Positions 21,828 to 60,396 of a DNA stretch of 64,000 nt are shown piece after piece. A program made the translations under genes and the position numbers. The stretch is from Kiritimatiellia bacterium (GTDB lineage Bacteria > Verrucomicrobiota > Kiritimatiellia > UBA8416 > YA12-FULL-48-11): contig JAQUPZ010000001.1 of assembly GCA_028716365.1 (NCBI GenBank), positions 839,393 through 903,392 on the forward strand. The letters run 5' to 3'. Each line of letters begins with the position of its first letter. The stretch's first letter is position 1. The notes beneath the pieces were generated by a model, which was given only the letters and a program-made list of their open reading frames with translations, was not told the origin of the DNA and made no database searches.

Positions 21828-22169
21828 TGATACTATTACCCGTCAACATTTTCCTGTTTTGAGAAGATTTTCTGCCGCGATAAAGATTGTCTCTTGATTC
21901 CGGATCAATCCGCCGATCGGCGGATTGTGTAAACCGTGTCACGAATTTCTATTCTTCGGTGAAATATTTGATGTCAGATGCCGTTGCAGCACGGCAAAAG
22001 GATCGGCGCTGTATATGCATACGCGCCGCATCCTTTCAACACAGCTGCAACGAGCAGATCACATCACAAGATTTCACCGGAAATTCGTAACACTCTTTAA
22101 CTCTAAACAGCGGCGAAATCTGAAATAACTGCTTGTAGCAAGGCATAACCGTGATAGGATTTCCTTAAC

Positions 22170-22237
22170 TAACCGGGACAAGAGCGCTGGAATCGGTGTT
22201 TCAGAATTGCTCCCCAATAAAGCAATTTCTTATAAAC
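22170..22237 (+). promoter_or_regulatory. Conserved 68-bp leader element, copy 2
   Basis: It is near-identical to 19441..19508 and contains the same AATTGCT-N9-AGCAATT palindrome. It ends 18 nt before the ATG at 22256. Confidence 0.6.
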
Positions 22238-22255
22238 TCAACTGACAATACAATC

Positions 22256-30249: not shown

Positions 30250-30488
30250 GAAGTGAATCCTTTCTTAGGTGTTGAAAAACATGAATCAGAACAATACGAA
30301 TTGTATCGTATTTTGTCATCACAAAACTGGTTTGTTCCCAGGTTCAACACGGTCTGGCTGATGAGAGAAGGGACTCCATTTCCACGTTGCATTCTCGATC
30401 TGATTCGATATTATCTGCCACAGAATAACCGGTATTTGTACGTCCTGTTAAATAAACCCAAAGAGAAAGCGGGGAGGAAGAATTCAAA

Positions 30489-36172: not shown

Positions 36173-36389
36173 CTGTTTCACTCAAGAACAAACAGTATTT
36201 CAGTTACGAAAAAGGCCAAAGTTTGCGGGACCGTGACTTTGTGGGCCGTTTTCATTCGTTTTTTTCCGCATATTCTAGTGTCATAATCCGTTTTAAATAC
36301 AATATCTTATTAGAGTTCCATGCCCGGTTATAGAACCGACTAAAACCGGGTTTCCACTTGAAACAACAGAAAGGCAGGTATGTAAAACC

Positions 36390-37880: not shown

Positions 37881-39998
37881 ATGATGATTAAGATGTTCAA
37901 TATCAAGCATATGATGGTCCTGTGTGTGGTGGTGTTTCTTGTTTTCCCTGTCTTGAGTCCGTCAGAGGCGATGGCTAAAGACAAGAAAGTTGTTCTGCTG
38001 GCTGGTGTAAAAAGCCATAAGCCCGGAGAACATGAATATGAGAAGACCATGATGCTGTTCATGCATTGCCTGGATACCGCACCGAATGTTAAGAGAGTGA
38101 GTACGGAAGTCCATGTCAACGGCTGGCCGCAGGATGAGAAAATACTGGATGATGCTGATACGATTGTCATTTTCTGTGATGGTGGCAGTAAGGGGCTCCA
38201 GCATCCACTTCTAAAGGATGGCCACATGGCAGTTCTGGAGAAGCAGATGAAACGGGGTTGCGGCCTCGTTGTCATACATTGGGCTTTGAATCTACCGTCA
38301 AAGATTGGCAACGAAACATTTCTTCGATGGATTGGCGGGTTTAAAGACTACGAGAATCCGCCGCGCCCGATCGGTGAACAACTGAAAGTTCAGGACTGGT
38401 CCAAACAGGCGAAACATCCGATCTGCCGCGGCTTGAAACCATTCGAGATGCCAAAGGACGAGTATAAAACCCCTGAACGTTTTCTGTCGGATCAGCCGGG
38501 ATTTATCCCGATCCTGCCGTTCCCCGGTGAACCTGGTTCACCTCTTTGGGCCTGGGCCTGGGAACGTGAGGACGGCGGTCGCGGATTTGGTTTCATAGGT
38601 GGACACCTCCATGAGATATGGAACATCGAAGACCTGCGGAAGACCATGCTTAATGCTATTCTATGGACAGCCAAAGCAGCGGTTCCTGATGATGGTGTAA
38701 TATCGATGCTTCCAGTAGTTGCCAAAACTCCTCCAGAACCTGTTTTTATTCCAATAAAGATCGATGGCCCCATGAACAATCCGGCTATCGGGAGTTACTG
38801 GTACGGCCCGTTTAATGAATCTTGCTCCCTGGTGGATGTCAACGGTGATGGCGAAGTTGATATTACCTGTGGTGTCAATTGGTATGAAGCACCTAAATGG
38901 AAAAAGCATGCCTGTTATTTTGAGGGCGCAGAACAACGTAACTTTCTATATGGTCATTGCGATGAAACAGCCATGGACGTAAACAGGGACGGATTGGTCG
39001 ATGTGGTCAATTCGGGATACCAGCCGGGTATAGCCGGTGTGTTGTGGCACGAAAACCCCGGCAAAGGTGGCGGCAAGTGGAAGGTACACCGTGTTCATGC
39101 CTCGCCATTCATGGAAGGTGTGGTTCAGGTCGATATCAATGGTGACGGCCAAAAAGATTTATTGATGAATCATTTCCGCAGATACGGTGGGGCGGAAGGC
39201 GAAGGATCTGTTGCTCACATGGAGGCAATTGGCTGGTTGGAATCAATCGACAAGGAACCATGGCTTGTCACTCATGTCATTGCACCTGAATCGGAAGACC
39301 ACGGCATTGGTGCGGGTGATATTAGTGGTGATGGTCGCGTGGATGTAGTTACCAAGCACGGTTGGTACGAGGCGCCGTCCAATCCCTCTTCAGGCAACTG
39401 GCAGTTTCATAAGGACTTCGAACTGCCGTTCAGGGCCTCGTTACCCATGGTGGTTATTGACGTTAATGGTGACAAGTTGAATGACATTATTGTCGGCAAT
39501 GGTCACGGGTACGGTTTGTTCTGGCTGGAGCAGCGTGTTGATTCTCAGGGGAAACGTGAATTCCTGCAGCATGCGATAGAGGAACATTATGGCAATTTTC
39601 ATACCGTTACATTGGCCGATCTGAACGGCGACGGCAAGCTGGACCTGGTTGCCGGCAAGAGGCTGCTTGGTCACGATGGCCGTGATGGCGGCGAGTGGGA
39701 TCCACTGTTTCTTTTCTGGTACGATATTCAGGGGGGTAAATTTGAACGGCACCTGATTTCGTTCAATAATCTCCAGTATTATCCTGGTCTTGAGAATTTT
39801 AACGAGCCTCCACAATATGCGCCCGGGACGGGTATGAGGATCACCGTTGGTGATGTCACTGGTGACGGCAAACCCGACATTGTTGTGGCCGGTCGTGGCG
39901 GATTGTATGCCTTCATCAATCGCGGTATGACGCCTAAAACGAAATCCGAAAATCCCAAGGTTCCGCTGATCGGCGATAAAATTCCGGACCTGAAGTGA
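37881..39998 (+). CDS. Secreted ThuA-like (class I GATase-like) domain fused to FG-GAP/VCBS-repeat beta-propeller
   Basis: A signal peptide is present. The N-terminus has ThuA-like blocks (KKVVLLAG...DADTIVIFCDGG). The C-terminus has six or more D(V/I/L)NGDGxxD repeats. Confidence 0.65.
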   Translation: MMIKMFNIKHMMVLCVVVFLVFPVLSPSEAMAKDKKVVLLAGVKSHKPGEHEYEKTMMLFMHCLDTAPNVKRVSTEVHVNGWPQDEKILDDADTIVIFCDGGSKGLQHPLLKDGHMAVLEKQMKRGCGLVVIHWALNLPSKIGNETFLRWIGGFKDYENPPRPIGEQLKVQDWSKQAKHPICRGLKPFEMPKDEYKTPERFLSDQPGFIPILPFPGEPGSPLWAWAWEREDGGRGFGFIGGHLHEIWNIEDLRKTMLNAILWTAKAAVPDDGVISMLPVVAKTPPEPVFIPIKIDGPMNNPAIGSYWYGPFNESCSLVDVNGDGEVDITCGVNWYEAPKWKKHACYFEGAEQRNFLYGHCDETAMDVNRDGLVDVVNSGYQPGIAGVLWHENPGKGGGKWKVHRVHASPFMEGVVQVDINGDGQKDLLMNHFRRYGGAEGEGSVAHMEAIGWLESIDKEPWLVTHVIAPESEDHGIGAGDISGDGRVDVVTKHGWYEAPSNPSSGNWQFHKDFELPFRASLPMVVIDVNGDKLNDIIVGNGHGYGLFWLEQRVDSQGKREFLQHAIEEHYGNFHTVTLADLNGDGKLDLVAGKRLLGHDGRDGGEWDPLFLFWYDIQGGKFERHLISFNNLQYYPGLENFNEPPQYAPGTGMRITVGDVTGDGKPDIVVAGRGGLYAFINRGMTPKTKSENPKVPLIGDKIPDLK

Positions 39999-40028
39999 GC
40001 ATTTACAACTATAGGAGAAAAAACTGCA

Positions 40029-40808
40029 ATGAGACCCGTAAATATGATCCGGTACTTTCTAACCGTACTGATTGTTGTGGTCCTCGTGTCGATTGACTTG
40101 GGGATATCTGCTCCGGCTTTATCCGGTAAAGCTAAAATACTGGTTCTTACCGGTAACGAGTATCCCGGGCATAAATGGCGTGAAACTGCTCCATTAATTG
40201 CTAAGTTTCTTGCGACTGATTCACGGCTGACGGCTGAGGTCAATAATGACCCGCAGTTTCTTGCTTCTCCACAGTTACACGAGTATGACGCAATCGTACT
40301 CAACTATCTTAACTGGAAGTGCCCTGATCCCGGTGAAAAGGCCCGCGCGAACTTAAAGAAATTTGTAGAAGGTGGAAAAGGGCTTGTGATTGTGCATAAT
40401 GCGTGTGCTGCTTTCGGGGAATGGCCAGAGTTCAAGGAAATTGCCGGTCGCGCATGGAACCCGAATCGTGTACACGGCCATGATCCTAATGGATCGTTTC
40501 AGGTCGAAATTACAAATGTAGATCATCCGATCACGAAGGGAATGAAGTCATTTGTGACAACGGATGAACTGTACACCTGCCTTTTGACCAATGGTCCTCC
40601 GGTCGAGGTTCTGGCCAAGGCCATGTCGAAAGTCGAAAAGAAGGATCATCCGATGGTCATTGTAAATCATTACGGGAAAGGGCGCGTGTTTCTCTGCGTT
40701 TTGGGGCATGACGTGGCGGCTCTCAGCGTTGAAGCTGTACAGGAACTTTATCGACGCGGGACTGCCTGGACTGCTAGATTGTCGCCTGATAATGGAGAGG
40801 TATATTGA
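40029..40808 (+). CDS. Secreted ThuA family protein
   Basis: A signal peptide is present. ThuA-like blocks are present (KILVLTGNEYPGHKW, YDAIVLNY, GKGLVIVHNA). Confidence 0.65.
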   Translation: MRPVNMIRYFLTVLIVVVLVSIDLGISAPALSGKAKILVLTGNEYPGHKWRETAPLIAKFLATDSRLTAEVNNDPQFLASPQLHEYDAIVLNYLNWKCPDPGEKARANLKKFVEGGKGLVIVHNACAAFGEWPEFKEIAGRAWNPNRVHGHDPNGSFQVEITNVDHPITKGMKSFVTTDELYTCLLTNGPPVEVLAKAMSKVEKKDHPMVIVNHYGKGRVFLCVLGHDVAALSVEAVQELYRRGTAWTARLSPDNGEVY

Positions 40809-41364
40809 GGTGGAAGAGAAAGAACTCATAATCAAGTCCCAGCAGGGCGATATTGATGCCTTTTCCGGACTGGTCAAACTGTATCAGGGAAATATTCGCG
40901 CGTGTCTTGCTGTACGCCTTACTAATACCTTTGAAGCTGACGATCTGGCCCAGGAGACGTTCATTGTGGCTTTCCGTAAGATAAATGACTTTGATTCTAC
41001 CCGTCCATTTGGCCCATGGCTGAGATCGATAGCGTTCAACCTGCTCCGCAATTTCTGGCACAAGCATAAAGCGGAACCCGTTGGCCATTCAGAGGAACTT
41101 GCCCTGCTGGTGGACGAGCACATTGCCCTGAATTATTCGGAGCGGAATGAACTGAATGCACTTAATACCCTGCGTGAATGCATGAAGAAACTCGACGAGT
41201 CGATGCGCAGGCTCGTTGAATTGCGTTACCATGAGAATCTCCCGCTGGCTGATCTTATGAAGAAGCTGAATATAAATCATTCCACTCTGACCATGCGCCT
41301 TCACCGTGTAAGGTTTTCGCTGAAGCAGTGCGTGGAGACCAATCTCGAAGGTGTTTCTTCATGA
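40792..41364 (+). CDS. ECF-type RNA polymerase sigma-70 factor
   Basis: Sigma region 2 (DDLAQETFIVAF) and region 4 (LRYHENLPLADLMKKLN) are present. The gene overlaps the next gene by ATGA. Confidence 0.8.
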   Translation: MERYIEVEEKELIIKSQQGDIDAFSGLVKLYQGNIRACLAVRLTNTFEADDLAQETFIVAFRKINDFDSTRPFGPWLRSIAFNLLRNFWHKHKAEPVGHSEELALLVDEHIALNYSERNELNALNTLRECMKKLDESMRRLVELRYHENLPLADLMKKLNINHSTLTMRLHRVRFSLKQCVETNLEGVSS

Positions 41365-42956
41365 ATGAAAATCACGAAAAAATGATAGCTGAATTCATGA
41401 GCGGTGAAGGCTCCGGCAGGGAACTGCTTGAGCTGTGCCGTAAGGACAAGGCCCTTCTGAATGAGCTGGCTGAACTGACCGTGATGGAAAGACTGTTATC
41501 TCACCAGGCACAGGATTCGAGTTCCGAGCTTTTTGCCGCGGAAGTCAGAGCTATCCTGTCGCGCGGGGAAGAATCTGATTCTTTCGTGTTCGGGGTTCGG
41601 GACAGGCTTGCAAAAGAAAACCAAACGTTACCGGTAAGCAGGCTTTTCTGGTTGCCAAATATGTTGAAGCTGGCCGCGGCTGCGCTGATTGTTTTTTCAA
41701 TGTCCTATTGGATATATGTAAACCGCCCTGTTGCAGTCCTGGCAAATTCTGCTGCTGCCGACTGGACCGACAAAACCATAGGAATTGAGCAGGTATTCAA
41801 GCGCGGCATAGTTGATCTCAAAGCGGGTTGTGCGGAACTTAAGTTCCGGAATAATGTGATAGTTCTCCTCGAAGGGCCAGCCAGGCTCAGGATCAAATCG
41901 GCCGATCACGTGGTTTTGTATCAAGGCAACCTTGTGGCTGACGTACCGAAAAATGCAATCGGGTTTCGGGTGGACACGCCCACTTCCGAGGTGATTGATC
42001 TTGGCACAGTGTTTGGAGTTTCGGTTGACCAGAAGGGTGTTTCAGAGATTCATGTGATCAAGGGTAAAGTCAAGGCCAGGAAGAATGGAAATCAGTCCTT
42101 TGTTGATTTGACGGAGAACGAAGCCCGGTCTTTCAGCAGGGATGAGAATTTGGCCAGGATTATTGAGAGCAATATGGACAAGTTTCTAAGGGTGTTACCC
42201 GGTAAATCCGGGCGTAATCCGGCATATCTGCACTGGTCTTTCGATGAAGGACAGGGAACAGAGGCCGGTGAGAACCATGTCGGAAACAATACAACAAACT
42301 ATCCGGCACGTCTTAAGTCGCTCAAGGAAGATGGTGAAATTCCTGAATGGAACAATGGTCAGTTCGGCAACGCGCTTTATTTCAATGGAAGTACTGCATA
42401 TGCGGTCACCGATTATCCCGGCATAGGTGCAAATCATCCGCGAACGGTGGCGTTTTGGGTTAAAGTTCCCAAGCCTGATTCAATGACGCCTGTCTACGGA
42501 TTGGTAAGCTGGGGATCCATGGCGGATATTGGAAGCGCGTGGCAAATCTCCATCAATCCGACTGAAAAGGAAGGACCTCTGGGACGGTTAAGAATGGGTA
42601 CAAAACAAGCACAGGCAATCGGTACTACAGATCTTCGCGATAATCGCTGGCACCATATTGCCGTCGTGATGTATGGCGGAGAAACGGCTGATGTTTCAAC
42701 CCATATTTTGCTGTACATTGATGGCAAACTTGAAAAAACTTCCAGGAAATCCATTCACCGTATTTTTACGGATATCGAGAGCGGACTTGCGGTAACTGTC
42801 ATGTTCGGACGGGATATGGGGCATCCTCTTGATGACAGTAAGTTTTCGTATAACCTGTTCAAGGGCTGGCTGGATGAAGTCTATATTTTTGAAGCGGCTC
42901 TTTCACGTGAGCAGGTGGAATCGCTCATGAAAAATAACAGGGTGCCATCGGGGTGA
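41361..42956 (+). CDS. FecR-type anti-sigma factor with C-terminal LamG/concanavalin-like domain
   Basis: The start ATG overlaps the sigma stop (ATGA). It has an N-terminal anti-sigma region, one TM helix, a FecR domain (GFRVDTPTSEVIDLGTVFGVSVD) and a C-terminal LamG-like domain. Confidence 0.75.
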   Translation: MNENHEKMIAEFMSGEGSGRELLELCRKDKALLNELAELTVMERLLSHQAQDSSSELFAAEVRAILSRGEESDSFVFGVRDRLAKENQTLPVSRLFWLPNMLKLAAAALIVFSMSYWIYVNRPVAVLANSAAADWTDKTIGIEQVFKRGIVDLKAGCAELKFRNNVIVLLEGPARLRIKSADHVVLYQGNLVADVPKNAIGFRVDTPTSEVIDLGTVFGVSVDQKGVSEIHVIKGKVKARKNGNQSFVDLTENEARSFSRDENLARIIESNMDKFLRVLPGKSGRNPAYLHWSFDEGQGTEAGENHVGNNTTNYPARLKSLKEDGEIPEWNNGQFGNALYFNGSTAYAVTDYPGIGANHPRTVAFWVKVPKPDSMTPVYGLVSWGSMADIGSAWQISINPTEKEGPLGRLRMGTKQAQAIGTTDLRDNRWHHIAVVMYGGETADVSTHILLYIDGKLEKTSRKSIHRIFTDIESGLAVTVMFGRDMGHPLDDSKFSYNLFKGWLDEVYIFEAALSREQVESLMKNNRVPSG

Positions 42957-43048
42957 TTAGGAAGATACGCTGTTGACAGCGCACACTACAGAAGAAGATT
43001 ATCTGTAGAGTCGGCTGTCCACAGCCGAGAAAAAAGAGGGATAATACA

Positions 43049-45418
43049 ATGAAGAAATGTAGAACATTGCTGTTTATGATGGTTCTGGTTTGTTTGTCTG
43101 TTTATGGCGCTGATAAAAAAGATAGTAAAATTCAAATCAGCGGGATTTATCCGCACCTTGCGGCGTTCAGTACCAATGGAGAAGTCGGGATTGGCGCAGT
43201 TGTTCCGTGGGCCGGCAAATTGTGGACAATGACATATCCGCCGCATCATCCTGAAGGCGGCAGTGACAAACTGTATGAAATCGATGGTAATCTGAACATG
43301 ACCATCCGGCGCGAAAGCGTTGGCGGTACCCATGCCGGAAGGATGATACACAAGGAAAGTAACCAGCTGATAATGGGTCCGTATTTTATTGATGCATCAG
43401 GCAAGGTCCGCGCTGCTAATATTCATAAACTGCGCGGACGATTGACGGCCGTGGCGCGGCATCTGACCGATCCGGCCAACAAGGTGTATATCTATGACAT
43501 GGAAGGTGCAGTTTATGAGGTTGACGTCCACAGTCTTGCACCAAAGAAACTTTTTGACAGACCTGTACCCGGCTGGCATGGCAAGGGGGGATATACAGGA
43601 CAGGGCCGGCTGGTTATCGCCAATAACGGTGAAAGCCCTGCGGATAAAAAGAAATATACATACCTTGTCGGTGATGAAGCCAAGGAGCCGGAAGAAGCGG
43701 GAATACTGGCAGAGTGGGAAGGAAAGGATTGGAGGATAGTCGAAAGGCGCCAGTTCACGGATGTGACAGGGCCGGGTGGTATCTACGGTTCACCTGATGA
43801 CAAGAGTCCATTATGGAGTATCGGATGGGACAAACGTTCCGTCATCCTGAAACTGCTTGATGGCGGTAAATGGTCAACATTCCGCCTTCCGAAGGCGAGT
43901 CACAGCTATGATCCGAAACATGGCTGGTACACCGAATGGCCGCGTATTCGGGGAGCGGCAACAGGAAGATTGATGATGGACATGCATGGCATGTTTTATA
44001 ACTTTCCAGGCGGATTCTGTTCGTCACAAACAGGCGGGATAAGTCCCATTGCAAGTCATCTCCGTTATATCCCGGATTTCTGCGACTGGAACGGGAAGCT
44101 TGTTCTTGCCTCGGACGATACGTCGATCATGCAGAACCCGATGGCGGGAAAGTCGCAATCCAACCTGTGGTTTGGCCGTTTCGATGATCTGCCAACATTC
44201 GGTCCGCGATCGGGCTGGGGTGGTCCCTGGGTTGGCGATAATGTGAAGGCCGGGCAGGTATCCGATCCTTTCCTTATTAAAGGGTTCCATAATCGTGTGA
44301 TACATATTGCACATACAAGTGATGGCGAAGTTGAGTTCACATTTGAGAATGATAAAGCCGGTGACGGCAAGTGGCTGGAATATCAAAAAATCTCAGTACC
44401 GGCGCGTGGTTACCGGATGCATATTTTCATGAAAGATTTTGATGCCAGCTGGATCCGCGTGAAAGCAGACAAGGATTGTAAAGCCACGGTTTATTTTCAT
44501 TATTCTTCACCGCGTGACACATCCAAAGATGACGAACCGATATTTGAATCTCTCGCGACAATAAATGATTCTTCAGTTGGCTGTGCGGGAATTATTCGTC
44601 CATCCAAGGCCAATAATAATCTTGAGTTTGTTGTATCGACGAAAGGAGAGGATGCCGGCGGTTATGAAGTGAACGAGAAGATGGAAATGATCCCCGGCGG
44701 GGAAAGGGTAATTGCCGCGGTGAAAGAGGTTGCCCAGATCAAGAAAGAACTCGAGGTTGATGATGCATCAGGTATCATGACTCTGAAAGACAAGCGGTAT
44801 CGCATCCCGGTCAGTGATCCAAAATATGGCAAGCCTTTTGAGTTTGGATTGTCACGTTGTATACGGGAGTGTGTTTCCGAACGCTATCTGTTCAATGCCT
44901 GCGGCACTTTTTATGAAATGCCGCGTGACAGTGGATTGCCGTTGATCAAACCTGTTGCGACTCATAACCGGCAGATCATGGATTTCTGTACATGGCGCGG
45001 GCTTATGGTTTTAAGTGGAACAAAAGCCGGTGCCAAGGCGGATGGCCATTATTTTGGTTCTGCCGATGGCAAGGCCGGATTATGGTTTGGATCAATTGAT
45101 GATCTCTGGCGGCTGGGTAAACCGGTCGGTAAAGGCGGACCCTGGAAAAATGCCGATGTACAGGCGAACAAACCATCTGATCCCTACCTCATGACCGGCT
45201 ATGACAGGAAGAAGGTGGAGATAACATCCGACAAAGACGCCAATATAACGCTTGAGGTGGATTTCGATCATCAGAGCGGCTGGCACAAATATCTGACTTT
45301 CAAAGTAAAGCCGGGCAAAACGTCCAAACATGAATTTTCGGAAGGGTTTTCGGCACACTGGATACGTGCAGTCTCCGATACCGACTGTAAGGCCACAGTC
45401 TGGTTAGTTTATGAGTAG
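43049..45418 (+). CDS. Secreted hypothetical protein with an internal tandem duplication of a ~150-aa domain
   Basis: A signal peptide is present. Two repeats both end in WIR(V/A)xxDxDCKATV(Y/W). Confidence 0.6.
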   Translation: MKKCRTLLFMMVLVCLSVYGADKKDSKIQISGIYPHLAAFSTNGEVGIGAVVPWAGKLWTMTYPPHHPEGGSDKLYEIDGNLNMTIRRESVGGTHAGRMIHKESNQLIMGPYFIDASGKVRAANIHKLRGRLTAVARHLTDPANKVYIYDMEGAVYEVDVHSLAPKKLFDRPVPGWHGKGGYTGQGRLVIANNGESPADKKKYTYLVGDEAKEPEEAGILAEWEGKDWRIVERRQFTDVTGPGGIYGSPDDKSPLWSIGWDKRSVILKLLDGGKWSTFRLPKASHSYDPKHGWYTEWPRIRGAATGRLMMDMHGMFYNFPGGFCSSQTGGISPIASHLRYIPDFCDWNGKLVLASDDTSIMQNPMAGKSQSNLWFGRFDDLPTFGPRSGWGGPWVGDNVKAGQVSDPFLIKGFHNRVIHIAHTSDGEVEFTFENDKAGDGKWLEYQKISVPARGYRMHIFMKDFDASWIRVKADKDCKATVYFHYSSPRDTSKDDEPIFESLATINDSSVGCAGIIRPSKANNNLEFVVSTKGEDAGGYEVNEKMEMIPGGERVIAAVKEVAQIKKELEVDDASGIMTLKDKRYRIPVSDPKYGKPFEFGLSRCIRECVSERYLFNACGTFYEMPRDSGLPLIKPVATHNRQIMDFCTWRGLMVLSGTKAGAKADGHYFGSADGKAGLWFGSIDDLWRLGKPVGKGGPWKNADVQANKPSDPYLMTGYDRKKVEITSDKDANITLEVDFDHQSGWHKYLTFKVKPGKTSKHEFSEGFSAHWIRAVSDTDCKATVWLVYE

Positions 45419-45432
45419 GAAGGAGAAACAGT

Positions 45433-46005
45433 ATGAGTAAATTTGTTGCTGGTATGGTTTGGGTGGTTTTCCTTTGCCTTTCCTGTGCCTGGGCAGGTGA
45501 CAATACCGAAATGAAAATTCAGAATCTTGTTGCCGTGTCCGGAAAAGTCTATGTCAGTGGTGTTGGTAATTTTAAAGCTGGAATGAAGCAGTATATTGAT
45601 AGGGACTACATCTTTGACTACATACCGGCTTTTCTTCAGGGTGCCACTCATATTCTAACTGCCGGCAATGACAAGTTCATTGACGAAGAAAAACCATGTT
45701 TAAGCTTCGAAGTAAATATTCCTGTCTCCGTTTACATTGTTTATGGCGACAAACTGCGTGTTATTCCCTCATGGCTGAAGGAATTTGAGGATACGCGATG
45801 GAAAGTAACGCGAAAAGACTCCAATGCCACTACTTTGAAGGGTATTTTTACGCTTTTCCGGAAAGATTTTTCTGCTGGAAAAATTACTCTGAATGGGAAC
45901 CTGTCGAAGGCAATGGCAAATGACCCGGAATTCAAGAAGATGAAGGGTGGTACCTTTTGCATGTATACTGTTGTCGTTGTCCCTAAAAGCAGCCGTCAGG
46001 AGTAG
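45433..46005 (+). CDS. Small secreted hypothetical protein
   Basis: A signal peptide is present (cleavage after AWA). A good SD (GGAGGAG-like) lies upstream. Confidence 0.5.
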   Translation: MSKFVAGMVWVVFLCLSCAWAGDNTEMKIQNLVAVSGKVYVSGVGNFKAGMKQYIDRDYIFDYIPAFLQGATHILTAGNDKFIDEEKPCLSFEVNIPVSVYIVYGDKLRVIPSWLKEFEDTRWKVTRKDSNATTLKGIFTLFRKDFSAGKITLNGNLSKAMANDPEFKKMKGGTFCMYTVVVVPKSSRQE

Positions 46006-46077
46006 TGTGGTTTAGTTGCTGAAGTTTTGTTCATCATGATTGATATACAGTTTCGAAATGAGTAAAGAGGAGAAAAA

Positions 46078-47928
46078 ATGAACCGAAGAGATTTTCTTAA
46101 AAGTGTTGGTTTGGCTGTTGTTGCACTTCCTCAGATTGGCATTTCTGCGTCAGGATCAACATCAGTTCTGATAGAAGCTGAAAGTTTTCAGGATCCGGGC
46201 GGGTGGGGGCTGGATCAGCAGTTCATGGACCAGATGGGTTCTCCTTATTTATTGGCTCATGGACTTGGAAATCCCGTCAAGGATGCTGTGACGACGGTCA
46301 AATTTCCTGAAACTGGTGAATACAAGGTATGGGTGCGGACAAAAGACTGGGTAGGCCAGTGGAAAACACCTGACACACCAGAAGTTTTAAAAGCAAAAGG
46401 TACCCCGGGCGAATTCCAGATAATTGTTAATGGCAAAACGCTTCCTGCAATATTTGGTAATGAAGGTGCGGAATGGCACTGGCAGGATGGCGGAAAAATT
46501 ACAATCAGCGGGAAAAAAGCGTCACTGGCATTACATGACCTTACGGGTTTTGATGGCCGGTGTGAAGCAATACTGTTTACGACGGACGAAAAACTTGTAC
46601 CGCCGAATACCGGAAAGGAGATGGCGGAGTTTCGCAGGCAGCTTCTTGGCCTGCCTGGCAAACCTCAGAATGCGGGAAAGTTTGATCTTGTCGTTGTAGG
46701 TGGCGGAATTGCGGGAACCTGTGCGGCGCTTTCCGCAGCAAGACTCGGCCTGACTGTCGCGCTTATCCAGGATCGTCCCGTTCTCGGAGGCAATAACAGT
46801 TCTGAAGTTCGCGTCTGGTTGAGCGGTGAGGTCAATAAAGAGCCGTATCCAAGGATTGGTGACATTGTAAAAGAACTTGACCAGAAAAGAAGGGGACATC
46901 CCGGCACGGGGGATATGTACGAGGATGAAAAGAAACTTTCGCTTGTTAAATCAGAAAAGAAAATAAAACTGTTTATTGATTTCAGGGCAAATGAGGTCCA
47001 GGTGGATTCCGGCGGAATCAAGACCGTGGTTGCACAGAACACGCGGACCGGCCGCAAAATGAGTTTTAAAGGGAAATTTTTTGCGGACTGTACGGGCGAT
47101 GCGATAATAGGTGTCCTTGCCGGTGCTGATCATGAGACCAGGATGAAGGATCACATGGGGCCAAGCAACTTATGGAATGCAAAAGACACAGGCAGTCCTG
47201 TGACTTTCCCGCGATGTCCCTGGGCGCTGGACCTGAGTACGAAACCTTTCCCGGGTCGCGGTCAAGGTTCGGCCCAGTGGTCAAAAAAAGGTGTTGATAG
47301 TCTGGGTCGATGGTTCTGGGAAACGGGATTCGACTGGGACCCTATTAAGGACAGGGAAAAAATGCGTGACTGGAACATGCGGGCGATGTTCGGGGCCTGG
47401 GATGCGTTGAAGAATGTTGATAAACTCTATCCGAACCATGTTCTCGAATGGTCGGCATACATTTCCGGTCCGCGTGAGTCACGCCAGATTCTTGGTGATG
47501 TTATTCTGAACAGGGAAGACCTTGTCAACAGCAGGAAATGGGATGATGGTTGTTTTCCATGTACCTGGAGCATTGATCTTCACACGCCGCATCTTGCATA
47601 CCAGAAAGGGTTTGAAGGGAATGAATTCATCTCACAGTGTACCGGTGATAAGTTCCCGCGTCCCTACTGGGCACCGTACCGGTGTCTTTACAGCCGCAAT
47701 ATCCCAAATCTTTTCATGGCAGGTCGCGATATCAGCGTGACACATGACGCTCTCGGTGTTGTCCGTGTAATGCGTACCTGCGGCGCAATGGGTGAAATTG
47801 TCGGCATGGCTGCTTCACTGTGCAAAAAACACAGCGCAACACCTCGTGATGTTTACCAGAAATACCTGGAAGAATTGAAACAACTCATGGCAAAAGGGAC
47901 GGGTAAGGTGGAACCTGCGAAACCATAA
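46078..47928 (+). CDS. Tat-exported FAD-dependent oxidoreductase (PF12831-like) with N-terminal beta-sandwich domain
   Basis: A twin-arginine motif (RRDFLKS) is present. The FAD motif DLVVVGGGIAGTCAALSAARLG is present. Confidence 0.7.
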   Translation: MNRRDFLKSVGLAVVALPQIGISASGSTSVLIEAESFQDPGGWGLDQQFMDQMGSPYLLAHGLGNPVKDAVTTVKFPETGEYKVWVRTKDWVGQWKTPDTPEVLKAKGTPGEFQIIVNGKTLPAIFGNEGAEWHWQDGGKITISGKKASLALHDLTGFDGRCEAILFTTDEKLVPPNTGKEMAEFRRQLLGLPGKPQNAGKFDLVVVGGGIAGTCAALSAARLGLTVALIQDRPVLGGNNSSEVRVWLSGEVNKEPYPRIGDIVKELDQKRRGHPGTGDMYEDEKKLSLVKSEKKIKLFIDFRANEVQVDSGGIKTVVAQNTRTGRKMSFKGKFFADCTGDAIIGVLAGADHETRMKDHMGPSNLWNAKDTGSPVTFPRCPWALDLSTKPFPGRGQGSAQWSKKGVDSLGRWFWETGFDWDPIKDREKMRDWNMRAMFGAWDALKNVDKLYPNHVLEWSAYISGPRESRQILGDVILNREDLVNSRKWDDGCFPCTWSIDLHTPHLAYQKGFEGNEFISQCTGDKFPRPYWAPYRCLYSRNIPNLFMAGRDISVTHDALGVVRVMRTCGAMGEIVGMAASLCKKHSATPRDVYQKYLEELKQLMAKGTGKVEPAKP

Positions 47929-48029
47929 GCCGGTAAATTGGGCAAAGAACAGAACTGATTACGAGTTGTATTTTTCGAAATAGATGCCAGTCTATGTAAA
48001 AAAGTGCATTCTTTCACCGAGGTGATATT

Positions 48030-50609
48030 ATGCTGGCATTCAGAATGAGTATTTTGATTTTCTGCTTTTTCTTTCCCGTTCTGCGTTTGTGTGCCGCTAT
48101 TCAAGGTCTGCCGGCAAAACCCTGGGACGATCTCCCGACAGACCGGCCTAGAACGCAACAGATTGTTGTTACCACCAGTCCAAAACAATACGAGATTGTG
48201 ATGGACTCAACCGTGGACGGAGTCATGACCAGGATGCCCGTCGGATATTCCGCCTTCCATCAGGGCTGGCAGCCAAACCGTTTCGTCCGGCTTGAAAACA
48301 TAGGTGACACCGATGTCATCAACCCCTGGCTCACAATCAATGGCAAACGCAAGTGGCGCTCTCTTCAGGAACTGACCAGGGAAGCCACAGGCAGTTATCA
48401 AACGGATGCGGACAAGGCGCGTGCTGTCTATGAATTTACACGTCAGCACCGTTTCCATGCATGTACTTGGGATAGAGAAGTTGACGATGCTGTTAAGGTC
48501 TTCAACGTTTACGGCTACACGCTTTGCGGTGATGATGCTCAGGTGATCGCAGACCTGTGGAAAGCAGCAGGTCTTCAAACGCGCCGCGGCTACCCGGTTG
48601 GACATTGTGTCTCTGAAGTGTTTTATGACGGTGATTTCCATTTGATGGATGGAGATGAACACGGTATCTACCTGAAACGGGATAACCAGACTGTAGCGTC
48701 CGAAGCGGAAGTGGTGCATGACCACGATTTGATGAAGCGGACACACACTTACGGCATACTGTCCGGCGACAGTCCGCAGACAGATGAATTTTCTGCATCG
48801 CTTTTCGGATACGAGGGGAAACGCGAAGGTTCAAATGGCGGTTATACCAGGCATGTCATGGCTTTCACGCTGCGGCCGGGCGAATCTATTGAGTGGAGGT
48901 GGGACCACATCGGCAAGCAGTATAGCGCGGGTACGGTAACGGCGGATGGTAAATGGCATAAGGATGGGGAAGGAGACTTGGCCATCTGGGGTGATATCTT
49001 CTATTCCAAAATGCGCAATGGCAGGACGGTCTATCAACCGGATCTGACAAAAGATATTGCCCGGCGCGGTATGATGGATGCTGTTGGCCTTGCGGTGCCG
49101 GGCTTGACCGGTCTGACTCCTGTAACAGCCGGTAAAGTGGCATCCGCCACCTGGCAGGTTGCCACAGCGTATGTGACCGTTGGCGGCAAAGTCACTACCC
49201 GGTTCAAACGGGCAGGCATCGCGGACAAGATTTCTGTAAGTCTCTCCCGTGACGGAAAAGACTGGCAAACTGTTTGGGAAGCGAAGGACCAGACGGGAGT
49301 GTTTCCTGTCGAGCTTGTCCTGGATGATCGTCTTTCTCCGCGTGCGAAGCCGCAATACGCCTATCGCGTCCGGATTGATATGACTGCAGCCGTGAATCCC
49401 GCTGATGTTGTCCTGGAAAAAATATTATTCGAGACGGATTTGCAGATGGCGGCACTGGGTCTGCCGGAATTGGAGGTTGGAAAGAACAGCGTTGAATACA
49501 CAGACGAAACACCGGGCCTCCGAAAAGTCAGCATTACGCATAACTGGCTCGAACGTACTGCATGGCAGCCGCCGGCGGCGCCGGTTCCAGAATTACCTGC
49601 TGACGGTGCCACTGTCGACGGTACACAGGTATCCCTGCGCTGGCAGCCGGCAGGGCATCCTGCAGGGACGGCAATTTCCGATTACCGCGTACAGGTCAGC
49701 GCATTTGCCGACATGCGCTGGGTACTCTCGCCCAACTTCGACAAGATCGTATCGAAAACTGCTTCCAAAGAAAAAACCGGGTGGGCTGTGCCTTTCATTG
49801 GATTATTGAACCCTGCTGTTCCCTACTACTGGCGGGTTTGTGCAAAAGATGCCAATGGTGTGTGGGGTCCGTGGAGCAAGGTGTCAAGTTTCTTGTGTGA
49901 TGCGCCGGGTGTTCCGATTCTTGTCAGGGCAATAGCGGACCAGGTTGGTCACACTGTTACATTGACATGGGAGCCGAGTCCCGGGGGTACAACCCCAGTC
50001 GAATATAGGGTTTATGCCAGTGATGAAAAAGGATTCTCCATCAGTGATGTTGAATACAAAGTGCGTATGGGCCGGGGATTTTGCAGGGACATGGCCGAAT
50101 ACAAGGCCAGGGAAAAGGTGAATGAATATATTGCGACTCCCGCAAATTTCCTTGCCGCAACGAAAGAACGGACAATGATTGTCGCGGGACCGGACCTGAC
50201 TGTACAAAATGCAAACAAGTGTTTCTACCGTGTGGTTGCCGTTGATAAGAGCGGATTACGCAGTGGCGCTTCCGAATATGCCGAGGCGCCTCATCCTTTT
50301 ATCTACACAAAGCCGGTCACCCGTCTTGTCAAGGGTCAGGCGTTCGATTACCAACCCCGCGTCTTGCGCTCCATTGGAGACTTGCGATGCAAGGATGGAT
50401 ACAATGCCGCTTTCTGGAACCGTGAGATATTGACATTCTCTCTCGCCAGGGCGCCAGTCTGGATGACAGTGGACTCACAGACTGGACATATTTCCAGTAC
50501 TCCGCCGCAAAATGCCGCGGGCAGTCACGAAGTTGTACTCAAGATCGTCAATGACAAGGGTAGCACCGCTGAGCAATCCTTTGTTCTTGATGTGACTCCA
50601 GCTAGGTGA
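48030..50609 (+). CDS. Secreted transglutaminase-like cysteine-protease-fold protein with C-terminal FN3/Ig-like (He_PIG-type) domains
   Basis: A signal peptide is present. A Cys...His...Asp core is present (GYTLCGDDAQ...GHCVSEVFYDGDFHLMD). The C-terminal repeats are beta-sandwich-like. Confidence 0.6.
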   Translation: MLAFRMSILIFCFFFPVLRLCAAIQGLPAKPWDDLPTDRPRTQQIVVTTSPKQYEIVMDSTVDGVMTRMPVGYSAFHQGWQPNRFVRLENIGDTDVINPWLTINGKRKWRSLQELTREATGSYQTDADKARAVYEFTRQHRFHACTWDREVDDAVKVFNVYGYTLCGDDAQVIADLWKAAGLQTRRGYPVGHCVSEVFYDGDFHLMDGDEHGIYLKRDNQTVASEAEVVHDHDLMKRTHTYGILSGDSPQTDEFSASLFGYEGKREGSNGGYTRHVMAFTLRPGESIEWRWDHIGKQYSAGTVTADGKWHKDGEGDLAIWGDIFYSKMRNGRTVYQPDLTKDIARRGMMDAVGLAVPGLTGLTPVTAGKVASATWQVATAYVTVGGKVTTRFKRAGIADKISVSLSRDGKDWQTVWEAKDQTGVFPVELVLDDRLSPRAKPQYAYRVRIDMTAAVNPADVVLEKILFETDLQMAALGLPELEVGKNSVEYTDETPGLRKVSITHNWLERTAWQPPAAPVPELPADGATVDGTQVSLRWQPAGHPAGTAISDYRVQVSAFADMRWVLSPNFDKIVSKTASKEKTGWAVPFIGLLNPAVPYYWRVCAKDANGVWGPWSKVSSFLCDAPGVPILVRAIADQVGHTVTLTWEPSPGGTTPVEYRVYASDEKGFSISDVEYKVRMGRGFCRDMAEYKAREKVNEYIATPANFLAATKERTMIVAGPDLTVQNANKCFYRVVAVDKSGLRSGASEYAEAPHPFIYTKPVTRLVKGQAFDYQPRVLRSIGDLRCKDGYNAAFWNREILTFSLARAPVWMTVDSQTGHISSTPPQNAAGSHEVVLKIVNDKGSTAEQSFVLDVTPAR

Positions 50610-60313: not shown

Positions 60314-60396
60314 AGGTCCACCTTGTTCCTTAGATGGTCTAATGTTCCTGTATTGGTACGATAATTCTGGTGCCAGGTCAACCAAAATTATTGAAT

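What the first reader, a model, noticed from the sequence alone, without database searches (positions are those of the whole stretch)
37881..50609. ECF sigma / FecR-LamG anti-sigma pair embedded among ThuA, FG-GAP, FAD-oxidoreductase and transglutaminase-FN3 secreted proteins
A same-strand run of plus-strand genes comprises a ThuA-FG-GAP fusion, a ThuA protein, an ECF sigma overlapping its FecR-type anti-sigma by ATGA, a secreted protein with an internally duplicated domain, a small secreted protein, a Tat FAD-oxidoreductase and a transglutaminase-like/FN3 protein. The anti-sigma carries a periplasmic LamG (glycan-binding-type) domain. This suggests a cell-surface signalling module that senses a carbohydrate ligand and controls the downstream secreted enzymes. 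The targets of such FecR-LamG systems are largely uncharacterised.
Basis: inference. Interest (0 to 1): 0.5.

Follow-up and report, generated by a model that had tools for sequence, protein, structure and literature searches.

The report
Glycan-gene switch: ECF sigma with FecR-LamG anti-sigma
A sigma/anti-sigma gene pair in a Kiritimatiellae/Lentisphaerae-like genome is a real membrane signalling switch, of a type whose working has not been tested experimentally. It is repeatedly found next to two secreted enzymes of unknown function in several bacterial phyla, which gives a concrete handle on what those enzymes do.

Summary
The pair is an ECF sigma closest to the PVC-specific family TIGR02989 (just below its cut-off). 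Its partner is a single-pass FecR-family anti-sigma that ends in a LamG jelly-roll. The anti-sigma keeps the FecR Gly-Thr self-cleavage motif (G215-T216). It lacks the FecR C-terminal domain, and no TonB-dependent transducer was found nearby.

Comparative work gave three new results:
- **Promoter.** Relatives share the motif GTGTCA-N15/16-ACAAT: 9 exact hits in 200 kb of related loci against 0.3 expected, all upstream of genes. It precedes the sigma gene and genes for a 789-aa protein (p789), a PF12831 flavoprotein, sulfatases or agarase-type proteins.
- **Conserved partners.** Only p789 and the flavoprotein recur with the pair, in Verrucomicrobiota, Lentimonas and Pontiella. The ThuA and GFO genes are kept only in close relatives. 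The 190-aa and transglutaminase-like proteins were found in no other locus examined.

That the LamG domain binds sugar is plausible but unproven. Verdict: a new variant of a known kind, of moderate interest.

The parts
36278..36303 (+). Predicted ECF-dependent promoter: -35 GTGTCA (36278-36283), 15-nt spacer, -10 ACAAT (36299-36303). It lies 87 nt upstream of the GFO start codon.
   Evidence: This is the only exact match in the 64-kb window (0.18 expected). The same motif sits at the orthologous position in L005 (4783-4808). It also lies upstream of sigma, p789, FAD and sulfatase genes in related loci: 9 exact hits in 199.6 kb against 0.29 expected, all intergenic and co-oriented.
36390..37817 (+). 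GFO/IDH/MocA oxidoreductase with a Tat signal, resembling glycoside 3-dehydrogenases. It is the first gene after the predicted promoter.
   Evidence: Pfam GFO_IDH_MocA 56.5 bits. NCBIfam BT_2158_fam 227 bits, far below its equivalog cut-off of 750, and TAT_signal_seq 23.4 bits against a cut-off of 16.7. Conserved with the same order and promoter in L005/L038.
37881..39998 (+). ThuA domain fused to FG-GAP repeats (705 aa).
   Evidence: Pfam. 86% identical orthologue in L005. Absent from the more distant orthologous loci.
40029..40808 (+). ThuA-family protein (259 aa).
   Evidence: Pfam ThuA 123.3 bits. Orthologue in L005 only.
40792..41364 (+). ECF sigma factor. The public call starts at ATG 40792 (190 aa), but GTG 40810 is the likelier start (184 aa).
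   Evidence: Sigma70_r2 and Sigma70_ECF are above cut-off; region 4 is weak. TIGR02937 scores 68.8 bits against a cut-off of 42.9. The best family is TIGR02989 (Rhodopirellula/Verrucomicrobium), at 119.4 bits against a cut-off of 124.55. Sequence read.
41361..42956 (+). Anti-sigma factor (531 aa). Cytoplasmic helical N-domain (residues 1-90), one TM helix (97-120; DNA 41649-41720), FecR beta domain (125-270; DNA 41733-42170) with G215-T216 (DNA 42003-42008), and a LamG jelly-roll (289-510; DNA 42225-42890).
   Evidence: Pfam FecR 29.7 bits and Laminin_G_3 51.4 bits. AF2 model pLDDT 82.8 with these elements. D213-L-G215-T216 is invariant in 13 orthologues and paralogues and aligns with E. coli FecR G181-T182, the published self-cleavage site (PMC12036975). 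Fold neighbours: AbnA domain 4, and the Parabacteroides anti-sigma 4m0n.
42969..43025 (+). Long imperfect hairpin in the 92-nt gap between the anti-sigma gene and p789. It contains a sigma-70-like site (TTGACA-18-GATTAT, 42973-43002) and is not followed by a U-tract.
   Evidence: MFE -28.8 kcal/mol, z = -4.8, and 0 of 200 shuffles fold as well (repeated). The sigma-70-like site is, where the total number of such sites is no more than chance. The role of the hairpin is unknown.
43049..45418 (+). p789: a secreted protein of an unannotated family (beta-propeller plus beta-sandwich, partly duplicated). It is the most consistently conserved neighbour of this sigma/anti-sigma group.
   Evidence: No Pfam, NCBIfam or PDB sequence hit. 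At least 7959 homologues at 54-65% identity across phyla, and 1582 clusters at 50% identity. Model pLDDT 90 with only generic propeller neighbours. Adjacent to the pair in L006-L009, L013, L014, L035, L037 and the metagenome loci.
45433..46005 (+). 190-aa protein with a hydrophobic N-terminus. It was not found in any other species or locus examined.
   Evidence: No family hit. No relative in the metagenome scan or in any fetched locus apart from copies of the same contig.
46078..47928 (+). Tat-exported PF12831 FAD-dependent oxidoreductase with a beta-rich N-terminal domain of about 170 aa. It is the second conserved partner.
   Evidence: Pfam 208 bits. RRDFLK motif. Homologues at 50-54% identity lie next to the pair in L008, L009, L013 and L014, and at 37% in L005 and L012. 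The gene directly follows p789 in L033 and L034, where no ECF pair is near.
48030..50609 (+). 859-aa secreted protein: a transglutaminase-like core (below threshold), an fn3/Ig domain and a He_PIG domain. It is not co-conserved with the pair.
   Evidence: Pfam. Sequence. Absent from all related loci.
30269..30295 (+). Possible weak second promoter (GTGTTG-16-ACAAT, two mismatches) upstream of the DUF6807 gene at 30489.
   Evidence: Matches at two mismatches are too frequent to test (59 in the window, 11 of them intergenic), so this is only a lead.

Best explanation
The pair is a trans-membrane switch without an outer-membrane transducer, attached to glycan-degradation genes.

**What the sequence shows**
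- The ECF sigma is closest to the PVC-specific family TIGR02989. It is translationally coupled to a single-pass FecR-family anti-sigma.
- The periplasmic part of the anti-sigma is a FecR beta domain that keeps the Gly-Thr self-cleavage motif. A LamG jelly-roll follows, in place of the domain that contacts a TonB-dependent transducer in FecR.

**Inferred mechanism**
- At rest, the cytoplasmic N-domain of the anti-sigma holds the sigma.
- As in FecR, the protein is probably pre-cleaved at G215/T216, and the C-terminal fragment (rest of the FecR domain plus LamG) shields the membrane stub.
- A periplasmic signal loosens that fragment. The signal is most likely an oligosaccharide bound by variable loops of the LamG domain.
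- The stub is then removed by regulated proteolysis, and the sigma is released.
- The sigma reads GTGTCA-N15/16-ACAAT promoters.

**In this window**
- The one exact site (36278-36303) would drive GFO, ThuA-FG-GAP, ThuA, sigma and anti-sigma, giving positive autoregulation.
- Read-through across a gap with a hairpin but no terminator would extend this to p789, the 190-aa gene, the PF12831 flavoprotein and the transglutaminase-like gene.

**Across genomes**
- The conserved regulon core is p789 plus the flavoprotein. I infer these to be a two-enzyme module acting on a complex, often sulfated and fucose-rich, glycan.
For: - **Anatomy.**. G215-T216 is invariant and aligns with the FecR G181-T182 cleavage site (paper PMC12036975).
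- **Promoter in related loci.** 9 exact motif hits in 199.6 kb of orthologous loci against 0.29 expected. All are intergenic and co-oriented, 8-130 nt before a sigma gene or operon, p789, FAD, sulfatase or GFO gene.
- **Promoter in the window and in controls.** One exact hit in the window, at the position orthologous to L005. No hit at one mismatch or fewer in six p789 loci that lack the pair (L027-L030, L033, L034). Hits before sigma and p789 in Lentimonas, and before sigma in Pontiella.
- **Synteny.** The pair lies next to p789 and/or FAD in L006-L009, L012-L014, L035 and L037 with variable gene order. It does so in 9 of 17 close against 2 of 16 distant metagenome loci (Fisher p = 0.026).
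- **Bacteroidota parallel.** A Dyadobacter locus places two p789 paralogues and a PF12831 protein under an ECF/FecR/SusC(STN) system.
- **Neighbouring genes.** The neighbours are CAZymes: GH29, GH95, GH43, GH28, GH2, GH16, sulfatases and esterases.
- **Operon continuity.** No terminator-like site lies in the gaps of the run.
Against: - There is no ECF motif in front of p789, the 190-aa gene, the flavoprotein or the transglutaminase-like gene in the window. Verrucomicrobial p789 genes usually have their own copy.
- The gap between the anti-sigma gene and p789 holds a very stable hairpin and a sigma-70-like site.
- The closest relatives (81-84% identical anti-sigma) have a different gene at that junction.
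- The window's p789 belongs to a different subfamily from the ECF-linked ones in Verrucomicrobiota.
- The LamG domain is the most conserved part of the anti-sigma. About 45 columns are invariant even between loci with agarase-type and fucosidase/sulfatase-type genes. This is unexpected if it alone sets ligand specificity.
- Nothing here measures transcription, proteolysis or binding.
- A single motif hit in the window is not significant on its own (0.18 expected).
Confidence: 0.62

Rival explanations
1. The regulatory unit ends at the anti-sigma gene. In this genome the sigma controls only the upstream GFO/ThuA block and itself. The p789-to-transglutaminase block was placed next to it by recombination and is transcribed on its own, for example from the sigma-70-like site inside the hairpin.
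For: - No ECF motif lies before 43049, 45433, 46078 or 48030.
- The gap holds a strong hairpin and a TTGACA-18-GATTAT site.
- The closest relatives have a flavoprotein paralogue, not p789, after the anti-sigma.
- The window's p789 is of subfamily A, which elsewhere has AraC, SusCD or no regulator nearby.
- The 190-aa and transglutaminase-like genes are never co-conserved with the pair.
Against: - p789 and/or the flavoprotein lie beside this sigma/anti-sigma group in many independent loci and three p789 subfamilies. Chance juxtaposition in exactly this genome is therefore unlikely.
- All genes are on one strand with gaps of 14-101 nt and no terminator-like site.
- Sigma-70-like sites are no more frequent than chance in the region (23 found, 23.5 expected).
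Confidence: 0.25
2. The LamG domain is not the carbohydrate sensor. It is a conserved docking module for a protein partner, or only for the anti-sigma's own membrane stub. The partner could be a periplasmic or outer-membrane glycan-binding protein, or a protease. Specificity would lie elsewhere.
For: - The LamG region has the densest invariant columns of the whole protein, including many charged or polar residues (R361, Q395, N399, R411, D424, R426, D427, H431, H432, H448, D454, E458, K463, R484, D505, E506).
- These are shared by proteins from loci with quite different CAZymes.
- In FecR, the C-terminal fragment acts through protein contacts with FecA and with the N-terminal fragment (PMC12036975).
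Against: - The best solved structural neighbour is a bona fide carbohydrate-binding domain (AbnA domain 4, 5hon, TM 0.72, 22% identity). The lectin-like domains of trans-sialidases and clostridial toxins also match.
- Variable stretches interrupt the conserved core and could form a specificity pocket (residues 296-330, 371-383, 441-446, 471-499).
- No conserved candidate partner gene was seen next to the pair.
Confidence: 0.3
3. The pair is a general envelope-stress ECF system, and its position among glycan genes has no functional meaning.
For: Most characterised ECF sigmas respond to envelope stress. Generic similarity to SigW and RpoE models is present.
Against: - The family-specific promoter motif sits directly before CAZyme, p789, flavoprotein and sulfatase genes in many genomes.
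- The association with p789/FAD is conserved.
- The SigW and RpoE scores are far below the cut-offs for those families.
Confidence: 0.04

Closest known systems
FecI-FecR-FecA, and Pseudomonas cell-surface signalling (FoxR, PupR type)
   Same: - An ECF sigma translationally coupled to a single-pass anti-sigma with a periplasmic FecR domain (PF04773).
- The Gly-Thr self-cleavage motif is conserved and aligns with FecR G181-T182.
- The likely release route is regulated proteolysis.
- Positive autoregulation is predicted.
   Different: - No FecR_C/STN-binding domain; a LamG jelly-roll takes its place.
- No TonB-dependent transducer in the window or in the orthologous loci.
- No twin-arginine motif before the TM helix.
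- The sigma is closest to the PVC family TIGR02989, not FecI (23% identity to FecI).
- The targets are glycan-related enzymes, not iron uptake.
Bacteroidota PUL regulators: ECF sigma, FecR-type anti-sigma and a SusC-like transducer with an STN domain
   Same: - Both control secreted glycan-degrading enzymes.
- A Dyadobacter PUL of this type contains two p789 paralogues and a PF12831 flavoprotein, the same cargo as here.
- The FecR domain is structurally similar to a Parabacteroides anti-sigma (4m0n).
   Different: - There is no SusC/SusD pair here and no STN partner.
- The anti-sigma carries LamG rather than FecR_C.
- The promoter motif differs from anything I could check for Bacteroidota.
SigV-RsiV (lysozyme receptor anti-sigma), cited as an analogy only
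   Same: The anti-sigma's extracytoplasmic domain itself binds the inducing molecule, and this starts proteolysis (title and abstract of PMC4183432, listed). That is the mechanism proposed here for the LamG domain.
   Different: The domains are unrelated, the organism is Gram-positive, and the ligand is a protein. No homology is claimed.
FecR/LamG 'LamG-like jellyroll fold domain-containing proteins' of Lentimonas, Lentisphaera, Pontiella and marine Gammaproteobacteria
   Same: - Same architecture (PF04773 plus PF13385) at 38-48% identity, with the same sigma partner.
- Same promoter motif in the loci examined.
- The window protein is a member of this family.
   Different: These are database entries with generic names. 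My literature searches found no experimental or comparative description of them.

Membership tests
ECF (group 4) sigma-70 factors | Only regions sigma-2 and sigma-4 are present, and the ECF superfamily model matches above threshold. | tested here: met
   TIGR02937 68.8 bits (cut-off 42.9). Pfam Sigma70_r2 39.8 bits (cut-off 24). Sigma70_ECF 26.4 bits (cut-off 21.1). Region 4 is seen at 19.7-19.9 bits, below cut-off.
ECF (group 4) sigma-70 factors | Co-transcribed cognate anti-sigma. | tested here: met
   4-nt ATGA overlap at 41361-41364. The sigma/anti-sigma adjacency is kept in every orthologous locus. Co-transcription itself was not measured.
ECF (group 4) sigma-70 factors | Autoregulatory promoter specific to the group. 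| tested here: inconclusive
   The conserved GTGTCA-N15/16-ACAAT motif lies upstream of sigma genes or operons. In the window it is 87 nt before the first gene of the run. Dependence on this sigma was not tested.
TIGR02989 (Sig-70_gvs1, Rhodopirellula/Verrucomicrobium ECF subfamily) | Score at or above the curated cut-off. | tested here: not met
   119.4 bits against a cut-off of 124.55. It is the best-scoring family, but just below the cut-off.
FecR-family anti-sigma / sigma regulators | Periplasmic FecR domain (PF04773). | tested here: met
   29.7 bits against a cut-off of 24. The structural neighbour 4m0n is a putative anti-sigma.
FecR-family anti-sigma / sigma regulators | Conserved Gly-Thr self-cleavage site. 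| tested here: met
   G215-T216 is invariant in 13 sequences and at least 90% conserved in 35. It aligns with FecR G181-T182 (cleavage site from PMC12036975). Cleavage itself was not tested.
FecR-family anti-sigma / sigma regulators | Cytoplasmic N-terminal sigma-binding domain followed by a single TM helix. | tested here: inconclusive
   The AF2 model shows helices at residues 3-13, 19-28, 30-49 and 55-67, and a helix at 97-120. pLDDT is only 49-66 for residues 41-100. No family model for the N-domain was matched.
Classical cell-surface signalling (FecIRA type) | C-terminal FecR_C domain (PF16344) that contacts the transducer. | tested here: not met
   There is no PF16344 hit, and the C-terminus is Laminin_G_3. 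The Dyadobacter FecR in L003 does carry FecR_C.
Classical cell-surface signalling (FecIRA type) | Adjacent TonB-dependent transducer with an STN signalling domain. | tested here: not met
   No Plug, TonB_dep_Rec or STN hit was found in any window ORF scanned, nor among the neighbour representatives scanned in related loci. A transducer encoded elsewhere in the genome cannot be excluded.
Classical cell-surface signalling (FecIRA type) | Twin-arginine motif before the TM helix (Tat-dependent insertion, as in FecR). | tested here: not met
   The window sequence before the TM helix is ...LPVSRLFWLPN..., with no RR. Some paralogues do have RR. The FecR feature is taken from PMC12036975.
Bacteroidota-type polysaccharide utilisation locus | SusC/SusD pair. 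| tested here: not met
   None was found in the window.
LamG / Laminin_G_3 (concanavalin-like) domain | Domain model above threshold, with a jelly-roll fold. | tested here: met
   PF13385 51.4 bits against a cut-off of 27.6. The model shows a beta-sandwich at residues 289-510. Foldseek gives AbnA domain 4 at TM 0.72, and PTX3 and the trans-sialidase lectin domain also match.
LamG / Laminin_G_3 (concanavalin-like) domain | Carbohydrate binding. | not testable with these tools
   The evidence is only structural resemblance to carbohydrate-binding domains and genomic context.
ThuA/ThuB-like 3-keto-glycoside-forming pair (GFO plus ThuA genes) | A GFO/IDH/MocA dehydrogenase encoded next to a ThuA-family protein. 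| tested here: met
   Pfam hits and adjacency. BT_2158_fam scores 227 bits, far below its equivalog cut-off of 750, so the enzyme activity is not assigned.

The most novel reading that the evidence does not exclude
This sigma/anti-sigma group may be the dedicated sensor for the substrate or product of a widespread, entirely uncharacterised secreted two-enzyme module. The module consists of p789 (a beta-propeller/beta-sandwich protein; 1582 clusters at 50% identity, with no Pfam, NCBIfam or PDB relative) and a Tat-exported PF12831 flavoprotein. Together they would carry out a new, possibly oxidative, step in the breakdown of recalcitrant sulfated or fucose-rich glycans. The anti-sigma would sense the glycan directly in the periplasm through its LamG domain, using the FecR self-cleavage machinery without any TonB-dependent transducer.
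Probability: 0.3. Interest if true: 0.72.

Novelty: new variant of a known kind. Interest (0 to 1): 0.5.

Why it matters
PVC bacteria (Verrucomicrobiota, Kiritimatiellota, Lentisphaerota, Planctomycetota) are major degraders of recalcitrant algal and host glycans. How they switch on their hundreds of enzymes is largely unknown, because they lack the SusC/SusD and hybrid two-component logic of Bacteroidota.

This locus yields three testable items:
- A defined promoter motif for one family of their ECF sigmas.
- A predicted regulon core.
- A FecR-type anti-sigma that seems to work without an outer-membrane transducer.

It also points to two large, highly conserved enzyme families of unknown activity (p789 and its PF12831 partner). 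They are the conserved cargo of this switch, which makes them priority targets for biochemical study.

The same promoter and anti-sigma type occurs in Lentimonas, Pontiella agarivorans and Gayadomonas joobiniege. From my own knowledge, not checked here, these are cultured polysaccharide degraders, so experiments should be feasible.

Tried and rejected
The GGAAC-N16/17-CGT idea was replaced by an empirical motif read from orthologous upstream regions. The four proposed positions have no match at two mismatches or fewer.
- **Terminator and sigma-70 scans.** Counts are not above chance, and no terminator-like site lies in the intergenic gaps.
- **Terminator after the GDSL gene.** Folding of 36173-36275 is not better than shuffles (z 0.33).
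- **Function of the flavoprotein.** PDB sequence hits cover only the Rossmann dinucleotide-binding motif.
- **The 190-aa protein.** It has no family hit and no relative in metagenome contigs.
- **The transglutaminase-like protein.** Only its Ig-like C-terminal domains hit the PDB.
- **The Dyadobacter 826-aa protein.** It turned out to be a p789 paralogue, not a relative of the transglutaminase-like protein.
- **Literature.** Ten full-text queries, covering searches and in-paper term look-ups, found no description of FecR-LamG anti-sigmas or of PF12831/p789 function. The ECF re-classification paper does not mention this architecture in its main text. From memory only, and unverified here, papers on Kiritimatiellales and Lentimonas note many ECF/anti-sigma pairs next to sulfatase and glycoside hydrolase genes.
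- **RNA genes.** Rfam and tRNA scans found nothing in the window.
- **Failed look-up.** P0109 (Planctomycetes bacterium Pan216) is not on record.


Full report
**Observation**

The window is a contig of MAG GCA_028706615.1. NCBI labels its proteins Kiritimatiellae. The nearest genome hit is 'Lentisphaerae bacterium RIFOXYA12_FULL_48_11'.

- ThuA + FG-GAP (37881-39998).
- ThuA (40029-40808).
- ECF sigma.
- FecR + Laminin_G_3 anti-sigma (41361-42956).
- A 789-aa protein with no family hit (p789, 43049-45418).
- A 190-aa protein with no family hit (45433-46005).
- A Tat-signal PF12831 flavoprotein (46078-47928; RRDFLK motif).
- An 859-aa protein with fn3/Ig and He_PIG domains and a sub-threshold transglutaminase core (48030-50609).

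The ATGA overlap of sigma and anti-sigma is at 41361-41364. The internal duplication in p789 is real (E 2e-14).

Two corrections apply. The sigma starts at ATG 40792 (public call) or, more likely, at GTG 40810, which has a GGAGAGG Shine-Dalgarno 9 nt upstream and fits where homologues begin to align. The run of same-strand genes also continues upstream through a GFO/IDH/MocA oxidoreductase with a Tat signal (36390-37817), a GDSL esterase and further genes.

The rest of the window is rich in glycan-related genes: GH95 + LamG, GH123, a BNR protein, a SASA esterase, DUF6807 proteins and HZS_alpha-domain proteins. It contains no TonB-dependent receptor or SusC/SusD pair.

**Anatomy of the switch**

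The sigma matches the ECF superfamily model above threshold. Its best specific family is TIGR02989, the Rhodopirellula/Verrucomicrobium subfamily, at 119.4 bits against a cut-off of 124.55. It is only 23% identical to E. coli FecI.

An AlphaFold model of the anti-sigma (pLDDT 82.8) shows, in order:
- An N-terminal helical domain.
- One long hydrophobic helix (residues 97-120).
- A beta-rich FecR domain (125-270).
- A jelly-roll (289-510).

In an alignment of 13 orthologues and paralogues, the motif D-L-G-T (G215-T216) is invariant. It aligns with Gly181-Thr182 of E. coli FecR. A 2025 study identifies that bond as the non-enzymatic self-cleavage site that starts the FecR cleavage cascade, which ends with RseP (PMC12036975).

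Foldseek places the FecR part next to a Parabacteroides putative anti-sigma (4m0n). It places the jelly-roll next to domain 4 of the arabinanase AbnA (TM 0.72, 22% identity), the trans-sialidase lectin domains, clostridial toxin HCN domains and pentraxin.

The protein lacks the FecR_C domain and a twin-arginine motif. It therefore shares the FecR core but not the parts that couple FecR to an outer-membrane transducer.

**Related loci and synteny**

A genome scan with the anti-sigma returned 22 loci. I ran tblastn and blastp of the window proteins against them.
- **Closest relative.** L005 (anti-sigma 84% identical) keeps GDSL-GFO-ThuA/FG-GAP-ThuA-sigma-anti-sigma in order. It then continues with a PF12831 + F5/8C paralogue instead of p789.
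- **Verrucomicrobial orthologues.** These have anti-sigma at 45-47% and sigma at 54-56% identity. They lack the ThuA and GFO genes.
- **p789 and flavoprotein neighbours.** Those orthologues sit beside p789 homologues (L006, L007, L008, L009, L013, L014) and/or flavoprotein homologues at 50-54% identity (L008, L009, L013, L014). L012 has a flavoprotein homologue at 37% identity. Gene order varies.
- **Other neighbours.** The loci also carry many sulfatases, BD-FAE esterases, GH29, GH95, GH43 and GH28 genes.
- **Cultured organisms.** Lentimonas (L035) and Pontiella agarivorans (L037) show sigma, anti-sigma and p789 in that order, inside sulfatase- and fucosidase-rich clusters.

A metagenome scan gave 68 non-redundant loci. 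Of the 17 that are at least 8 kb long with an anti-sigma at least 36% identical, 9 carry p789 and/or the flavoprotein. Of the 16 with more distant anti-sigmas, 2 do (Fisher p = 0.026).

The 190-aa protein, the transglutaminase-like protein and the M55 peptidase were found in none of these loci.

**Promoter**

Reading the upstream regions of the orthologous loci revealed a bipartite motif, often preceded by an A-rich stretch: GTGTCA, 15 or 16 nt, ACAAT.
- **Frequency.** The exact pattern occurs 9 times in the 199.6 kb of L005-L016, against 0.29 expected from shuffles (maximum 3 in 300 shuffles).
- **Position.** All nine are intergenic, co-oriented with the next gene and 8-130 nt from it. They precede sigma (L008, L009, L013, L015), p789 (L007, L009), the flavoprotein (L012), a sulfatase (L007) and GFO (L005).
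- **One-mismatch copies.** These precede further flavoprotein, p789 and sulfatase genes. In the Gayadomonas plasmid they precede a GH2 gene and an Agarase_CBM gene.
- **Cultured organisms.** Lentimonas has the motif before both sigma and p789, and Pontiella before sigma.
- **Negative control.** Six p789 loci without the pair have no copy at one mismatch or fewer (L027-L030, L033, L034).

In the window there is exactly one exact copy, at 36278-36303. It lies in the 218-nt gap upstream of the GFO gene, at the position orthologous to the L005 site.

There is no copy with two mismatches or fewer in front of 43049, 45433, 46078 or 48030. A two-mismatch site at 30269-30295, before a DUF6807 gene, is only a lead.

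No terminator-like element lies in the gaps of the run. The 92-nt gap between the anti-sigma gene and p789 folds into an unusually stable hairpin (-28.8 kcal/mol, z -4.8) that includes a sigma-70-like site.

**Mechanism**

The shown steps are:
- The domain anatomy.
- The conserved cleavage motif.
- The conserved promoter motif and where it sits.
- The conserved neighbourhood.

The inferred steps are:
- The sigma reads this motif.
- The window's operon starts at 36278 and autoregulates.
- p789 to 50609 are reached by read-through.
- The anti-sigma is processed like FecR.
- The LamG domain binds an oligosaccharide.

The last inference is the weakest. The LamG domain is the most conserved region of the protein, with about 45 invariant columns even between loci with agarase-type and fucosidase/sulfatase-type cargo. 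This fits a conserved docking surface at least as well as a specificity pocket, although variable loops do exist.

The main rival for this particular window is that the downstream block is a separately transcribed neighbour. Four observations favour it: the missing motif, the hairpin, the different junction in the closest relatives, and the fact that the window's p789 belongs to subfamily A. The ECF-linked verrucomicrobial proteins form subfamily B.

Against that rival, the association of this sigma/anti-sigma group with p789-type and PF12831 genes holds across three p789 subfamilies and many loci.

**The cargo**

p789 has at least 7959 homologues at 54-65% identity in Planctomycetota, Armatimonadota, Bacteroidota and Verrucomicrobiota. 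It forms 1582 clusters at 50% identity. It has no Pfam, NCBIfam or PDB sequence relative.

Its confident model (pLDDT 90) matches only generic propellers.

Elsewhere it sits in several contexts:
- Next to SusC/SusD plus an MFS transporter.
- Next to an AraC regulator.
- Next to heparinase-II/III-like lyases.
- With no obvious regulator nearby.

It is directly followed by one or two PF12831 flavoproteins even where no ECF pair is present (L033, L034).

In Dyadobacter, two p789 paralogues and a PF12831-Golvesin_C protein lie in a PUL under a classical ECF/FecR/SusC(STN) system.

The two proteins therefore look like a conserved enzyme pair of unknown activity that acts on glycans. No activity could be assigned here.

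**Comparison and novelty**

The system works like FecIR-type signalling in its core. It works like Bacteroidota ECF-controlled PULs in its purpose. It fails the defining tests of both:
- No transducer.
- No FecR_C domain.
- No SusC/SusD pair.

It belongs to a family of FecR + LamG proteins that is widespread in PVC bacteria and in marine polysaccharide-degrading Gammaproteobacteria, and that carries only generic database names. I found no description of this family in the searchable literature.

I rate it a new variant of a known kind, with interest 0.5. The regulatory pair itself is not surprising to a specialist. The defined promoter, the transducer-less FecR architecture and the link to two large unknown enzyme families make it directly testable.

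Noticed in passing
window 43049-45418; loci L003, L004, L027-L030, L033-L035, L037: The 789-aa protein belongs to a large, highly conserved family (54-65% identity across phyla) with no annotation at all: 1582 clusters at 50% identity and no Pfam, NCBIfam or PDB relative. There are at least three subfamilies. The fold is a beta-propeller plus beta-sandwich, partly duplicated.
   Followed up: partly
L033 3079-10223; L034 5846-13918; window 43049-47928: p789 is directly followed by one or two PF12831 FAD-dependent oxidoreductases, even in loci that have no ECF pair. This points to a conserved two-enzyme module of unknown activity.
   Followed up: partly
window 42969-43025: An unusually stable hairpin (-28.8 kcal/mol, z about -4.7) lies in the gap between the anti-sigma gene and p789. 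It has no U-tract and encloses a TTGACA-18-GATTAT site. The other gaps of the gene run fold no better than shuffles. Its role is unknown; it could be a processing site, an attenuator or a recombination scar.
   Followed up: partly
L010 (Gayadomonas joobiniege G7 plasmid pG7) 3477-17250: A gammaproteobacterial plasmid carries the same sigma/FecR-LamG pair (anti-sigma 41% identical). Near-exact copies of the motif (at most one mismatch) lie in front of GH2 and Agarase_CBM genes, and a more degenerate copy precedes the GH16 gene; sulfatase genes follow. The family also occurs in Paraglaciecola, Colwellia, Alteromonas and Gilvimarinus, which suggests transfer between PVC bacteria and marine Gammaproteobacteria.
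   Followed up: partly
L003 (Dyadobacter psychrotolerans) 2741-22403: A Bacteroidota PUL runs ECF, FecR(+FecR_C), SusC(STN), SusD, p789 subfamily A, p789 subfamily B, SusC, SusD, PF12831-Golvesin_C, GDSL. This is the same cargo as in the window, but under a classical transducer-dependent system.
   Followed up: partly
L005/L038 11599-13968; L039 2337-3275: In the closest relatives (anti-sigma 81-84% identical), the gene after the anti-sigma is a PF12831 paralogue, not p789. In L005 this paralogue carries a C-terminal F5/8 type C domain. The junction is therefore evolutionarily unstable.
   Followed up: no
window 40792-40812: The public gene call starts the sigma at ATG 40792, overlapping the ThuA stop by 17 nt. 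An in-frame GTG at 40810, with a GGAGAGG Shine-Dalgarno 9 nt upstream, fits the homologues better (184 aa, as in L005).
   Followed up: partly
window 30269-30295: A degenerate copy of the promoter motif (GTGTTG-16-ACAAT) lies upstream of the gene run DUF6807, hypothetical protein, KDPG aldolase, PQQ-propeller protein. If it is real, the regulon would extend to about 30.5 kb.
   Followed up: no
window 6871-9477, 15085-17592, 52566-55295 (-), 55305-59474 (-): Four large proteins carry the HZS_alpha (hydrazine synthase alpha middle) domain. One is fused to F5/8 type C and FGE-sulfatase domains. The same combination appears in L034. An IclR regulator lies beside the minus-strand pair (59471-60385).
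   Followed up: no
window 36390-37817 and 22196-23377, 30489-31475, 62051-63043: The window carries a Tat-exported BT_2158-like GFO oxidoreductase, two ThuA proteins, two DUF6807 proteins and a xylose-isomerase-like TIM barrel. This hints at an oxidative (3-keto-glycoside) route of glycan breakdown in this organism.
   Followed up: no
anti-sigma residues 333-526 (window 42357-42938): The LamG domain holds most of the invariant columns of the family, for example WHHIAVVMYGG and GPLGRLR.GT, even across loci with different CAZyme cargo. That is odd for a domain supposed to set ligand specificity.
   Followed up: partly
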